NCBI GenBank assembly: GCA_017934595.1 | Contig: JAGBJG010000008.1 | Location: 65,687-129,686 of the forward strand | DNA length: 64,000 bases | From: Bacilli bacterium | GTDB lineage: Bacteria > Bacillota_I > Bacilli_A > RF39 > UBA660 | Direction of reading: 5' to 3' | Part shown: positions 19,260 through 22,958 of the stretch, piece after piece | Layout: every line of letters begins with the position of its first letter | Numbering within the stretch: position 1 is the stretch's first letter | The notes under the pieces: generated by a model | Databases searched by the model: none | What the model saw: only the letters and a program-made list of their open reading frames with translations | Told to the model about the DNA's origin: nothing | Translations under genes and position numbers: made by a program

Positions 19260-19273
19260 GTAGCATTCTTTCT

Positions 19274-19301
19274 TGCATTAATATAAATTTTAATATATAA
19301 T
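19274..19301 (+). promoter_or_regulatory. promoter TTGCAT, 16-nt spacer, TATAAT driving the antitoxin-like sRNA
   Basis: -35 at 19274-19279; -10 at 19296-19301. Confidence 0.45.
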
Positions 19302-19307
19302 GTATAT

Positions 19308-19422
19308 AGATGAGGGAAACTTCATAAAATAAAAAAGGAGTTACTTAACTTCGCGTGTTAGGTTACTACCTTAGTTAGGTTTTGCCTAGCCGTTTATGTT
19401 AAATGGTTAGGCGCTTTTTATT
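19308..19422 (+). ncRNA. candidate ~115-nt sRNA (type I antitoxin-like), copy 1
   Basis: Own promoter; 5' hairpin GAGG-GAAA-CUUC; AAAAAGGAG with no start codon after it; terminator GCCUAGCC...GGUUAGGC plus U-tract at 19384-19422. 5' motif shared with 43928-44034. Confidence 0.45.
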
Positions 19423-19490
19423 ATTGTTAATAAATATATTATTAATAATAATATGATAACTAATTTTAGAAATTTATTATCTTTCTTCAT
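19407..19490 (-). CDS. 27-aa hydrophobic peptide MKKDNKFLKLVIILLLIIYLLTIIKSA (type I toxin-like)
   Basis: Strong RBS AAGGAGG 8 nt before the ATG. Single TM helix with charged ends. Its 3' end overlaps the sRNA terminator. Not in the ORF track (too short). Confidence 0.5.
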   Translation of the reverse strand: MKKDNKFLKLVIILLLIIYLLTIIKSA

Positions 19491-19570
19491 AGTATCAACC
19501 TCCTTTTATATATCATTGGTGATGATAAGAAAAAGAGGTAGCAACCTAACAGTCTTTCACTCCTATAGCA

Positions 19571-19599
19571 ATTGTAACACGAAACATTGTTTGTGTAAA
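19571..19599 (-). promoter_or_regulatory. promoter TTTACA, 17-nt spacer, TACAAT for the small toxin-like peptide mRNA
   Basis: Read on the minus strand. It gives a ~75-nt 5'UTR containing ACCUCUUUUU, which is complementary to the SD AAAAGGAGGU. Confidence 0.4.
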
Positions 19600-22044: not shown

Positions 22045-22094
22045 TAAATAATTAAAAAGGGATTAAATTAATCCCTTTTTGTGTGTATTTATGA
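22045..22094 (+). repeat. 50-bp direct repeat, copy 1 (contains terminator hairpin GGGATTAA-ATT-TTAATCCC plus T5)
   Basis: A near-identical copy lies at 22908-22958 (one extra A). Confidence 0.8.
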
Positions 22095-22126
22095 AAATGT
22101 GCATATAATATAAGTGAATATACTAT

Positions 22127-22155
22127 TTGACATTTATTATGTTTTATAGTATATT
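22127..22155 (+). promoter_or_regulatory. promoter TTGACA, 17-nt spacer, TATATT for the ToxI-like repeat RNA and toxin
   Basis: Perfect -35; followed by a small leader hairpin GCAUUU-GUG-AAAUGC at 22163-22177. Confidence 0.5.
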
Positions 22156-22183
22156 AAAGTTGCATTTGTGAAATGCAGTAGAT

Positions 22184-22296
22184 AAAAAAGCTGGTGATTC
22201 CCACCATAAGAGGAACCGAAAAAAGATAGTGATTCCGACTATGACAGGAACCGAAAAAAGATAGTGATTCCGACTATGACAGGAAACTAAAAAAGT
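22184..22296 (+). ncRNA. type III antitoxin-like RNA: 3.2 tandem 35-nt repeats starting AAAAAAG
   Basis: R1 22184-22218, R2 22219-22253, R3 22254-22288 (R2 and R3 differ at 2 positions; R1 is more divergent), then a partial 4th unit. Same architecture as ToxI/antiQ. Confidence 0.6.
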
Positions 22297-22330
22297 AACT
22301 AGAGAGCAAACTCTAGTTTTATTTTATATA
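22296..22330 (+). terminator. intrinsic terminator or attenuator between the repeat RNA and the toxin gene
   Basis: AACUAGAG-AGCAAA-CUCUAGUU hairpin followed by UUUUAUUUUAU. Confidence 0.6.
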
Positions 22331-22394
22331 TATTGCGAACAAATGTATTGTAAAAAGGAGTGCGTTATGTTAAAATAAATATAGAGGTGATAAT

Positions 22395-22894
22395 ATGAAC
22401 GGCTTTTTAATAGTCAAGGTAAATTCGAAGTATTGTGATTATTTAAGAAAATATGATAGTAAGGTTCCATATAATTCTGGATTAAAAGAATTAAGACCTT
22501 TTATTGGAGTGTTGTTTTATATTGATAATATGATGTATTTTGCGCCTCTATCAAGTCCTAAACCTAAACATCAACGATTGAGAGCTAAACCTGATTTGAT
22601 TAAAATTGATGATGGTAAACTTGGTGTAGTTAATCTAAATAATATGATCCCTGTTAAAGAAAATTTAATTGAATTAATAGATTTAGACAGAACTAGTGAT
22701 GATATATCAGAAAAACAATATATTAAATTATTAAAAAACAATTAAATTGGTTGAATCGTAATAAGGTAAAGATTAAAGAAAAATCTATTTCGTTATATGA
22801 TAAATATATTACTGGTAGATTAAATGTCTATGTAAAAGAAAGATGTTGTGATTTTAAATTACTTGAAGAAAAATGTATGAAATATAAGTTATAA
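22395..22894 (+). pseudogene. ToxN/AbiQ-family type III toxin (endoribonuclease), disrupted by a frameshift in an A6 run at 22733-22738
   Basis: The N-terminus SKYCDYLRKYDSKVP...FIGVLFYIDNMMYFAPLSSPK matches my recollection of ToxN. Frame 0 stops at 22745. The +1 frame continues for 51 aa to TAA at 22892-22894 and matches the ToxN C-terminus (CDFKLLEEK), restoring ~167 aa. Confidence 0.65.
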
Positions 22895-22907
22895 GGATGT
22901 ATAATAT

Positions 22908-22958
22908 TAAATAATTAAAAAAGGGATTAAATTAATCCCTTTTTGTGTGTATTTATGA
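22908..22958 (+). repeat. direct repeat, copy 2 (51 bp) with the terminator hairpin
   Basis: Identical to 22045-22094 except for one extra A. Confidence 0.8.

What the first reader, a model, noticed from the sequence alone, without database searches (positions are those of the whole stretch)
22731..22745. ToxN-like toxin interrupted at an A6 homopolymer: +1 frame restores a full-length toxin
Frame 0 ends ...KLLKNN* at 22743-22745, giving only 116 aa. From 22739, 51 codons in the +1 frame continue to TAA at 22892-22894 and read QLNWLNRNKVKIKEKSISLYDKYITGRLNVYVKERCCDFKLLEEKCMKYKL. This aligns with the C-terminal third of ToxN (CDFAVLEEK region). The break is inside AAAAAA (22733-22738), so one extra A restores about 167 aa. 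This could be a sequencing or assembly indel in a homopolymer, a genuinely inactivated (domesticated) toxin, or a slippery site giving phase-variable or programmed frameshifting.
Basis: seen in the sequence. Interest (0 to 1): 0.55.

Follow-up and report, generated by a model that had tools for sequence, protein, structure and literature searches.

The report
Frameshift-broken ToxN toxin gene
A small anti-phage toxin-antitoxin cassette (ToxIN/AbiQ type) in a gut bacterium has its toxin gene broken by loss of one A from a run of seven; it looks like an ordinary, very recent pseudogene and not a recoding device.

Summary
ORF 22395-22745 (116 aa) matches positions 3-111 of Pfam ToxN_toxin. The frame one base back, 22739-22894, matches positions 112-159. 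Adding one A to the A6 run (22733-22738) gives a 166-aa protein with a full ToxN/AbiQ match and fold (TM 0.81-0.83 to four solved structures).

The gene sits in a complete type III toxin-antitoxin cassette: promoter, 3.2 copies of a 35-nt ToxI-like repeat, terminator hairpin, ribosome-binding site, toxN. The closest intact homolog (74% aa, same cassette layout) has A7 at exactly this site. All other homologs examined read through in one frame.

The downstream piece keeps all 13 invariant family residues, and its dN/dS (0.163) equals that of the upstream piece (0.161), so the break is recent. The identical 116-aa product occurs on 7 long contigs, and no intact allele of 90% identity or more is on record.

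Nothing supports programmed frameshifting. The in-phase A_AAA_AAC heptamer is one of 60 such A6 heptamers in this 26.6% GC window, there is no downstream structure (z 0.16), and the shift is not conserved.

The cassette is a strain-variable 864-bp insertion flanked by about 50-nt direct repeats. At least 7 of 40 related loci are also disrupted, at other positions.

Verdict: an ordinary pseudogene, of low interest.

The parts
22045..22094 (+). Left copy of the ~50-nt direct repeat that bounds the cassette. It contains the terminator hairpin of the upstream DcuC-like gene (22053-22081).
   Evidence: Same-species contigs without the cassette carry a single copy.
22127..22155 (+). Promoter-like site TTGACA-17 nt-TATATT of the cassette.
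   Evidence: 11 of 12 consensus matches. The same sequence block is conserved in the intact homolog locus L052.
22184..22295 (+). ToxI/antiQ-like antitoxin RNA array: 3.2 tandem copies of a 35-nt unit, each starting AAAAAAG.
   Evidence: Equivalent arrays of 34-38 nt and 2.2-4.2 copies precede 32 of the 39 other homolog loci with enough upstream sequence. Two interleaved helices covary across loci. No Rfam family matches.
22297..22318 (+). Terminator-like hairpin followed by a T-rich tail, between the repeat array and toxN.
   Evidence: The element is conserved in L052.
22383..22389 (+). Shine-Dalgarno-like AGAGGTG, 5 nt upstream of the toxN ATG.
   Evidence: Read directly from the sequence.
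22395..22745 (+). toxN 5' fragment: 116 codons plus TAA. It carries the beta-sheet core and the APLSSPK loop.
   Evidence: PF13958 positions 3-111, E 2.4e-34. An identical protein, P0002 / MBP3259072.1, is on 7 contigs.
22733..22738 (+). A6 run: the site of the inferred one-base deletion (ancestral A7). With C22739 it forms the in-phase heptamer A_AAA_AAC.
   Evidence: L052 reads TTA TTA AAA AAA CAA at the aligned codons.
22739..22894 (+). toxN 3' fragment in the -1 frame: 51 codons plus TAA. It encodes the C-terminal helices.
   Evidence: PF13958 positions 112-159, E 9.7e-9. It keeps all 13 invariant residues that lie after the break. Its dN/dS against L052 is 0.163.
22908..22958 (+). Right copy of the ~50-nt direct repeat (hairpin 22918-22944). 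It serves as the terminator after toxN and precedes gatC.

Best explanation
[quoted passage not shown] One promoter drives an array of 35-nt repeats, which is the precursor of the antitoxin RNA. A leaky terminator follows, and then toxN, which encodes a MazF-related endoribonuclease.

In this lineage a replication-slippage deletion shortened an A7 run (Leu-Lys-Lys-Gln, TTA AAA AAA CAA) to A6. Translation now stops after 116 residues, in the middle of helix 104-122. The product lacks the four C-terminal helices and 13 of the 44 invariant family residues, so it is most likely an unstable, non-toxic fragment.

The event is recent: promoter, repeats, terminator, ribosome-binding site and the downstream reading frame are all undamaged. 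The cassette is therefore a freshly dead defence/addiction module with an orphaned antitoxin RNA. A trace of full-length toxin from spontaneous -1 slippage on A_AAA_AAC is possible, but would be incidental.

Shown: gene identity, the break, the A7 state in the nearest relative, the cassette anatomy, the recency, and the strain variability. Inferred: loss of toxicity of the fragment, and replication slippage as the cause.
For: Identity of the gene:
- PF13958 covers both pieces contiguously.
- PADLOC AbiQ E 2e-40.
- PDB ToxN_Bt 4ATO E 1.1e-24, aligned across the junction without a gap.
- AlphaFold model of the repaired protein has pLDDT 92.7, and Foldseek gives TM 0.81-0.83 to 7D8O, 2XD0, 4ATO and 4GLK.

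Ancestral A7:
- The closest intact homolog (P0001 in locus L052, 74% aa) has the same promoter, repeat and terminator layout and reads TTA TTA AAA AAA CAA at this site.
- Of the other 35 homologs aligned, 34 read through in one frame, mostly with K-E, K-Q or R-E at this position; L025 has an in-frame stop four codons upstream.

Not an isolated read error:
- The exact 116-aa product is on 7 contigs, all longer than 50 kb, in both ENA and NCBI.

Recency:
- All 13 invariant and the near-invariant residues after the break are kept.
- dN/dS against L052 is 0.161 upstream and 0.163 downstream of the break.
- 51 open codons occur by chance in 0.13% of cases.
- Regulatory parts are intact.

Loss of function:
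- The break lies inside helix 104-122, and helices 124-139, 145-150 and 154-163 are lost.
- Engineered frameshifted toxN encoding truncated ToxN is the standard null control in the ToxIN literature (PMC4615649, PMC5772629).

Decay of toxN is common:
- At least 7 of 40 species-representative loci are disrupted, at other positions.
- Three of them (L025, L029, L035) keep the repeat array; the four most decayed (L034, L036, L037, L038) have lost it.
Against: - The independence of the 7 contigs could not be established. They collapse as 'similar places', and some may be re-assemblies of the same reads.
- No read-level data were available.
- The perfect preservation of the downstream frame and of the antitoxin array would also be expected if the full-length product were still made and selected.
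- A_AAA_AAC is a proven, if weak, bacterial -1 frameshift heptamer in an IS element cluster (PMC4066793).
Confidence: 0.8

Rival explanations
1. Sequencing or assembly error: the organism really has A7 and an intact toxN, and the consensus lost one A in the homopolymer.
For: - Homopolymers are the classic site of consensus indels.
- The downstream frame and all regulatory parts are pristine.
- The 7 contigs could not be shown to be independent.
Against: - The same 116-aa product is recorded on 7 contigs of different lengths from ENA and NCBI.
- No intact allele is recorded anywhere.
- No other gene junction in the 64-kb window looks like a homopolymer break, although the window holds 115 A6 and 44 A7 runs.
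- From general knowledge: short-read consensus errors at 6-7-nt runs are rare.
Confidence: 0.07
2. Phase-variable (contingency) switch: the A6/A7 tract flips by slipped-strand mispairing, turning the abortive-infection toxin OFF and ON within the population.
For: - The break is exactly at a homopolymer, and a relative has the ON length A7.
- Everything needed for re-activation is intact.
- From general knowledge: phase-variable defence genes are known, for example restriction-modification systems.
Against: - All recorded copies in this lineage give the OFF product, and no A7 allele exists.
- From general knowledge: a 6-7-nt tract is shorter than typical contingency tracts of 8-9 nt or more.
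- A7 arises here simply from Leu-Lys-Lys in an AAA-preferring 26.6% GC genome: 95 of 194 Lys-Lys pairs are AAAAAA, and the window has 44 A7 runs.
- Other homologs use K-E, K-Q or R-E with no tract.
Confidence: 0.06
3. Programmed -1 ribosomal frameshifting (or transcriptional slippage) on A_AAA_AAC produces a controlled low amount of full-length, functional ToxN.
For: - The heptamer is in the canonical X_XXY_YYZ phase (start and frame).
- A_AAA_AAC is a proven frameshift site, without a known stimulator, in an IS cluster (PMC4066793).
- The 0-frame stop follows within two codons, and the downstream frame is under the same constraint as the upstream one.
Against: - Downstream RNA folds no better than shuffles: -9.3 kcal/mol, z 0.16.
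- No SD-like element lies upstream (seen in the sequence).
- 60 in-phase A_AAA_AAN heptamers and 161 in-phase X_XXY_YYZ motifs occur in 56 ORFs of this window, so the motif carries no information.
- No other homolog is frameshifted at this site, and the nearest one is a plain A7 single ORF.
- Without stimulators such motifs give only 2-10 times a background of about 0.05% in E. coli (PMC4066793).
- From general knowledge: transcriptional slippage generally needs longer A runs.
Confidence: 0.04
4. The truncated 116-aa core, alone or together with a re-initiated 47-aa C-terminal piece (TTG 22751), has been retained for a new or split function.
For: - The fragment keeps the MazF-like beta core and the conserved APLSSPK loop.
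- TTG 22751 lies 5 nt after the stop.
- NCBI annotates both pieces as CDS.
- Several other disrupted loci also break near residues 98-123.
Against: - There is no SD before TTG 22751 (seen in the sequence).
- A split product would lack invariant Q116 and W119.
- The break bisects a helix.
- There is no family of about 116-aa homologs: P0002 is the only short protein among the top 120 hits, and its cluster has a single member.
- There is no sequence divergence with which to test selection.
Confidence: 0.03

Closest known systems
ToxIN of Bacillus thuringiensis pAW63 (ToxN_Bt, PDB 4ATO)
   Same: - Best solved-structure sequence match (E 1.1e-24, aligned over residues 9-165), with the same fold (TM 0.82).
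- Same operon logic: constitutive promoter, short tandem repeats, terminator, toxin (PMC4615649, PMC5086642).
- The A-rich repeat boundary is consistent with its reported A^AAAA cleavage site (PMC7781912).
   Different: - Here the toxin ORF is frameshifted.
- The locus is chromosomal, between a DcuC-like transporter gene and gatCAB, rather than on a plasmid.
- The repeat sequence is unrelated at the primary level.
AbiQ/antiQ of Lactococcus lactis pSRQ900 (PDB 4GLK)
   Same: - PADLOC AbiQ model E 2e-40 and TM 0.83.
- antiQ is a 35-nt repeat in 2.8 copies followed by a rho-independent terminator (PMC7781912). Here the array is 35 nt in 3.2 copies followed by a hairpin.
   Different: - Sequence identity is only about 29%.
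- The toxin here is broken.
- No anti-phage data exist for this locus.
ToxIN of Pectobacterium atrosepticum (PDB 2XD0) and of E. coli (PDB 7D8O)
   Same: - Same family and fold.
- The break site (K114-K115) aligns with ToxN_Pa Y115-K116. Y115A is reported to weaken control by ToxI (PMC5772629).
   Different: - Their ToxI is 36 nt in 5.5 copies.
- Their toxins are intact and experimentally toxic.
Engineered toxIN-FS negative controls
   Same: A frameshift in toxN giving a truncated ToxN is used as the inactive control for both the Pectobacterium and the Bacillus systems (PMC5772629, PMC4615649).
   Different: Those were made in vitro, and the position of the shift could not be read from the papers held. 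This one arose naturally at a homopolymer.
IS1-type A_AAA_AAC and dnaX A_AAA_AAG -1 frameshift sites
   Same: An identical or near-identical slippery heptamer in the correct phase.
   Different: No stimulatory element, no conservation of the two-frame arrangement among homologs, and a high background frequency of the motif in this genome.

Membership tests
Type III toxin-antitoxin, ToxIN/AbiQ family | Toxin belongs to Pfam PF13958 (ToxN_toxin) | tested here: met
   Both fragments hit contiguous parts of the profile. The repaired protein matches profile 3-159 of 159, E 6.1e-49, 166.7 bits against a cut-off of 25.
Type III toxin-antitoxin, ToxIN/AbiQ family | ToxN/AbiQ three-dimensional fold | tested here: met
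Foldseek gives TM 0.81-0.83 to 7D8O, 2XD0, 4ATO and 4GLK. This applies to the repaired protein, not to the encoded 116-aa product.
Type III toxin-antitoxin, ToxIN/AbiQ family | Tandem array of short (about 34-38 nt) nucleotide repeats directly upstream of the toxin gene | tested here: met
   35 nt in 3.2 copies at 22184-22295. The same feature is found upstream of 32 of the 39 other homolog loci with enough upstream sequence.
Type III toxin-antitoxin, ToxIN/AbiQ family | Rho-independent terminator between the repeats and the toxin gene | tested here: met
   Hairpin 22297-22318 with a T-rich tail. Seven terminator-like sites were found in the region against 0.2 expected in shuffles. Function not tested.
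Type III toxin-antitoxin, ToxIN/AbiQ family | Single promoter upstream of the repeats | tested here: inconclusive
   TTGACA-17 nt-TATATT at 22127-22155 matches 11 of 12 positions and is conserved in L052. Promoter-like sites as a class are not enriched in this AT-rich region (12 found against 10 expected).
Type III toxin-antitoxin, ToxIN/AbiQ family | Repeat unit folds as an RNA pseudoknot | tested here: inconclusive
   Two interleaved helices are present in nearly all units and covary. S1 changes ATAGT/ACTAT, ATAGC/GCTAT, TGGTG/CACCA. S2 changes TTCC/GGAA, CCCA/TGGG, GCCA/TGGC, TACC/GGTA. This was a hand-anchored search, not a formal covariation test, and no Rfam model matched.
Type III toxin-antitoxin, ToxIN/AbiQ family | Intact toxin ORF encoding a full-length endoribonuclease | tested here: not met
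   The ORF ends at codon 116 of about 166, and the remainder is in the -1 frame. The locus is therefore a disrupted member (pseudogene) of the family.
Type III toxin-antitoxin, ToxIN/AbiQ family | Toxicity neutralised by the repeat RNA; abortive infection of phage | not testable with these tools
   Requires expression and phage assays.
Programmed -1 ribosomal frameshift site | X_XXY_YYZ slippery heptamer in the 0-frame phase | tested here: met
   A_AAA_AAC at 22733-22739. Position 22733 is the third base of codon 113 (start and frame).
Programmed -1 ribosomal frameshift site | Stimulatory element (downstream stem-loop or pseudoknot, or upstream SD-like sequence) | tested here: not met
   RNA 22740-22830 has MFE -9.3 kcal/mol against a shuffle mean of -9.74, z 0.16. 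No SD-like sequence lies within 20 nt upstream (seen in the sequence).
Programmed -1 ribosomal frameshift site | Two-frame organisation and motif conserved among homologs | tested here: not met
   Of the 36 aligned homolog genes, 35 read through this site in one frame and one (L025) has an in-frame stop just upstream. The nearest homolog has A7 in one frame. Other disrupted loci break elsewhere.
Programmed -1 ribosomal frameshift site | Motif rarer than expected elsewhere (that is, informative) | tested here: not met
   60 in-phase A_AAA_AAN heptamers and 161 in-phase X_XXY_YYZ motifs occur in 56 ORFs of the window.
Phase-variable contingency locus (homopolymer switch) | Tract-length polymorphism among closely related genomes | tested here: not met
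   Seven contigs carry the identical truncated product. No intact allele of 90% identity or more exists in the protein collection, and pattern scans found no other tract length. The independence of the contigs is unverified and no read data were available.
Phase-variable contingency locus (homopolymer switch) | Long repeat tract maintained against codon-usage expectation | tested here: not met
   The tract is 6-7 nt and arises from TTA-AAA-AAA. 95 of 194 Lys-Lys pairs in the window are AAAAAA, and there are 44 A7 runs. Most homologs have no tract at this site.

The most novel reading that the evidence does not exclude
The broken gene is not dead but throttled. Spontaneous -1 slippage on A_AAA_AAC, or occasional A6-to-A7 reversion in a subpopulation, supplies a very small dose of full-length ToxN. 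That dose is held in check by the intact ToxI array. The result would be a low-cost, 'safety-catch' abortive-infection module that selection keeps one slip away from full activity. This would account for the flawless preservation of the downstream frame and of every regulatory part.
Probability: 0.05. Interest if true: 0.6.

Novelty: new member of a known kind. Interest (0 to 1): 0.15.

Why it matters
As it stands this is an annotation-level result: a naturally frameshifted toxN in an otherwise complete ToxIN/AbiQ cassette of an uncultured, AT-rich gut Bacilli lineage. GenBank already lists the two pieces as two 'ToxN/AbiQ family toxin' CDS.

It has modest use in three ways:
- It is a clean example of how type III toxins die: by homopolymer slippage, with the antitoxin RNA outliving the toxin.
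- With at least 7 of 40 related loci disrupted, it suggests frequent turnover of these defence modules.
- It warns that in-phase slippery heptamers carry no information in genomes of about 27% GC.

It would matter more only if read data or reporter assays showed real ON/OFF switching or recoding.

Tried and rejected
- Rfam search of the repeat region found no ToxI-like or other meaningful family.
- A metagenome-wide pattern scan for any tract length (N4-10) between the exact flanks gave one hit, a chance match on a ciliate telomeric contig. The same scan and a protein-based scan of viral contigs found nothing.
- I tried to retrieve the six other contigs carrying the 116-aa product by changing the flank size. 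The tool collapses them as similar places, so their independence stays unknown.
- blastn of the cassette against plasmid and phage collections gave only distant toxN hits (65-72% identity) in Fusobacterium and Lactococcus plasmids and a Clostridioides phage-plasmid. No donor element was found.
- I looked for flanking direct repeats around the other 40 toxIN loci, to test for a general mobility mechanism. There are none, so the ~50-nt duplication is particular to this insertion.
- I looked for other homopolymer-type gene breaks in the window, as a sign of systematic assembly error. None is evident.
- Fineran et al. 2009 (PMC2630095), which would give the position of the classical toxN-FS mutation, is not held.

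Full report
**1. The observation**

- An ORF starts at ATG 22395, preceded by AGAGGTG at 22383-22389. It ends ...QYIKLLKNN* at TAA 22743-22745, giving 116 aa.
- The A6 run occupies 22733-22738.
- From 22739, 51 codons (QLNWLNRNKVKIKEKSISLYDKYITGRLNVYVKERCCDFKLLEEKCMKYKL) run to TAA 22892-22894.

One correction concerns frame naming. Position 22733 is the third base of codon 113. The continuing frame is therefore reached by inserting one base, or by a ribosome slipping back one base. That is a -1 shift, and A_AAA_AAC (22733-22739) sits in the classical X_XXY_YYZ phase.

The open downstream frame is not chance. In this 26.6% GC window the -1 frame stays open 5.2 codons on average, and reaches 51 or more codons at 0.13% of in-gene positions.

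**2. What the gene is**

- The 116-aa piece matches Pfam PF13958 (ToxN_toxin) positions 3-111 (E 2.4e-34). The 51-aa piece matches positions 112-159 (E 9.7e-9).
- With one A added, the 166-aa protein matches positions 3-159 (E 6.1e-49).
- It also matches the PADLOC AbiQ model (E 2e-40).
- It matches four solved toxins: 4ATO, 7D8O, 2XD0 and 4GLK. The alignments cross the junction without a gap.
- An AlphaFold model of the repaired protein, built on a 43-sequence alignment, has mean pLDDT 92.7. It superposes on those four structures at TM 0.81-0.83.
- The break falls inside helix 104-122. The encoded product lacks the rest of that helix and helices 124-139, 145-150 and 154-163.
- Of the 44 invariant alignment columns, 13 lie after the break: L113, Q116, W119, N121, Y135, R150, C151, C152, L156, L157, E158, K160 and C161.

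**3. The surroundings: a complete type III cassette**

Upstream of toxN, in order:
- a promoter-like TTGACA-17 nt-TATATT at 22127-22155;
- 3.2 tandem copies of a 35-nt unit at 22184-22295, each beginning AAAAAAG;
- a terminator-like hairpin at 22297-22318 with a T-rich tail.

This is the defining layout of type III TA loci (PMC5086642). It is very close to antiQ/abiQ, which has a 35-nt repeat in 2.8 copies followed by a terminator (PMC7781912).

Among the homolog loci fetched, 32 of the 39 others with enough upstream sequence carry 34-38-nt repeats in 2.2-4.2 copies at the same place. Across these repeat units two interleaved helices covary, for example TTCC/GGAA, CCCA/TGGG, GCCA/TGGC and TACC/GGTA. 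That is the topology of a ToxI-like pseudoknot. No Rfam family matches.

**4. The ancestral state and the age of the break**

The closest intact relative is P0001 in locus L052 (74% aa identity). It has the same promoter block, an identical first repeat unit, the same terminator, and TTA TTA AAA AAA CAA, which is A7, at the aligned codons. The window allele is therefore A7 minus one A.

Of the other 35 homologs aligned, 34 read through this site in a single frame, mostly with K-E, K-Q or R-E and no A tract. The exception, L025, has an in-frame stop four codons upstream.

Between the window and L052, dN/dS is 0.161 before the break and 0.163 after it. All invariant residues after the break are retained. 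The downstream part was thus under normal purifying selection for essentially all of its history, so the deletion is recent.

**5. Is it real?**

- The exact 116-aa protein (P0002, NCBI MBP3259072.1, 'Bacilli bacterium') is recorded on 7 contigs, all longer than 50 kb, in ENA and NCBI.
- The 47-aa remnant is annotated separately as MBP3259073.1.
- One of the contigs (ERZ28655883 scaffold_20) is identical to the window over 6351 nt.
- No other junction in the window resembles a homopolymer break, despite 115 A6 and 44 A7 runs.

A consensus error is therefore unlikely. I could not, however, show that the 7 contigs derive from independent reads.

**6. Programmed recoding or phase variation?**

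I find no positive evidence for either.
- The heptamer is one of 60 in-phase A_AAA_AAN motifs, and of 161 in-phase X_XXY_YYZ motifs, in 56 ORFs of the window.
- The 91 nt downstream fold no better than shuffles (z 0.16).
- There is no SD-like element upstream.
- The two-frame arrangement is unique to this allele.
- In E. coli, heptamers without stimulators give only 2-10 times a background of about 0.05%. A_AAA_AAC is nonetheless a proven weak site in one IS cluster (PMC4066793). A trace of full-length product is therefore possible but incidental.
- For phase variation, all recorded copies are OFF, and the tract is short. It also follows simply from Leu-Lys-Lys in an AAA-preferring genome: 95 of 194 Lys-Lys pairs are AAAAAA.

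**7. Context: a strain-variable cassette, and frequent toxin decay**

The whole module is an 864-bp insertion between a DcuC-like transporter gene and gatC. It is bounded by direct copies, about 50 nt long, of the transporter gene's terminator region (22045-22094 and 22908-22958).

Six same-species contigs, 96-99% identical in the flanks, have the empty site with one copy. None of the other toxIN loci has such flanking repeats.

Among 40 species-representative loci, at least 7 have a disrupted toxN:
- L025, nonsense codon;
- L035, L036 and L037, frameshift or deletion elsewhere;
- L029, L034 and L038, truncated.

L025, L029 and L035 still have the repeat array. The four most decayed loci (L034, L036, L037, L038) have lost it. 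The window locus belongs to the 'just broken' class.

**8. Mechanism and verdict**

The most likely account (confidence about 0.8) is as follows. A ToxIN/AbiQ-type abortive-infection and addiction cassette was acquired, or is variably retained, in this lineage. It lost toxin function through a one-base slippage deletion in an A7 run. The fragment lacks the C-terminal helical half and is expected to be non-toxic, in line with the routine use of frameshifted, truncated toxN as a null control (PMC4615649, PMC5772629). The antitoxin RNA array is now orphaned.

The rivals are assembly error (0.07), a reversible phase switch (0.06), programmed or leaky recoding with function (0.04), and a retained or split function of the fragments (0.03). 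All can be tested with read pile-ups, a frameshift reporter and toxicity assays.

This is a new, disrupted member of a well-known family, and it is already annotated as two ToxN/AbiQ CDS in GenBank. Interest is low.

Noticed in passing
window 22045-22958 (repeat copies 22045-22094 and 22908-22958); empty sites in L043, L044, L045, L046, L048, L050: The ToxIN cassette is an 864-bp strain-variable segment bounded by ~50-nt direct repeats of the upstream gene's terminator region. Same-species contigs (96-99% identical flanks) have one copy and no cassette. The left copy has A5 where the right copy and all empty sites have A6. Whether this is an insertion (for example single-crossover integration of a small circle) or a deletion by repeat recombination cannot be decided. 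No other toxIN locus examined has such repeats.
   Followed up: yes
window ~19272-19599, minus strand: A second strain-variable mini-segment lies 2.5 kb away and is absent from same-species contig L046. It encodes, after an AAAGGAGG ribosome-binding site, a 27-aa hydrophobic peptide (MKKDNKFLKLVIILLLIIYLLTIIKSA) followed by a hairpin terminator. It looks like a type I toxin. No Pfam or Rfam match.
   Followed up: partly
loci L025, L029, L034, L035, L036, L037, L038: At least 7 of 40 species-representative toxN homologs are disrupted. L025, L029 and L035 keep the upstream repeat array; the four most decayed (L034, L036, L037, L038) have lost it. Four breaks (window, L025, L029, L037) fall between residues ~98 and 123, at the start of the C-terminal helical part. 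The sample is too small to tell whether this clustering is meaningful.
   Followed up: partly
L011 3001-3486 and 3751-4236: Two toxN homologs in tandem on one contig (56% and 49% identity to the query), about 265 nt apart: a duplicated or stacked type III locus.
   Followed up: no
L047 and L049 (Logan contigs from SRR12529170 and SRR12529204): These contigs are 100% identical to the window and start at window position 22929, inside the right-hand repeat copy. This is the behaviour expected of a de Bruijn assembly where the ~50-nt repeat is duplicated. It is indirect evidence that the cassette-bearing lineage is present in those runs.
   Followed up: partly
L045 1519-2911: In another strain of the species the DcuC-like transporter gene next to the insertion site is called as two ORFs (136 + 332 aa) instead of one of 463 aa. 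This is either a frameshift or a low-coverage assembly error.
   Followed up: no
window 22734-22739, against ToxN_Pa residues 115-116: The break site (K114-K115 of the repaired protein) aligns with Y115-K116 of Pectobacterium ToxN. Y115A is reported to reduce the response to ToxI (PMC5772629). The truncation therefore begins in a region implicated in antitoxin control.
   Followed up: no
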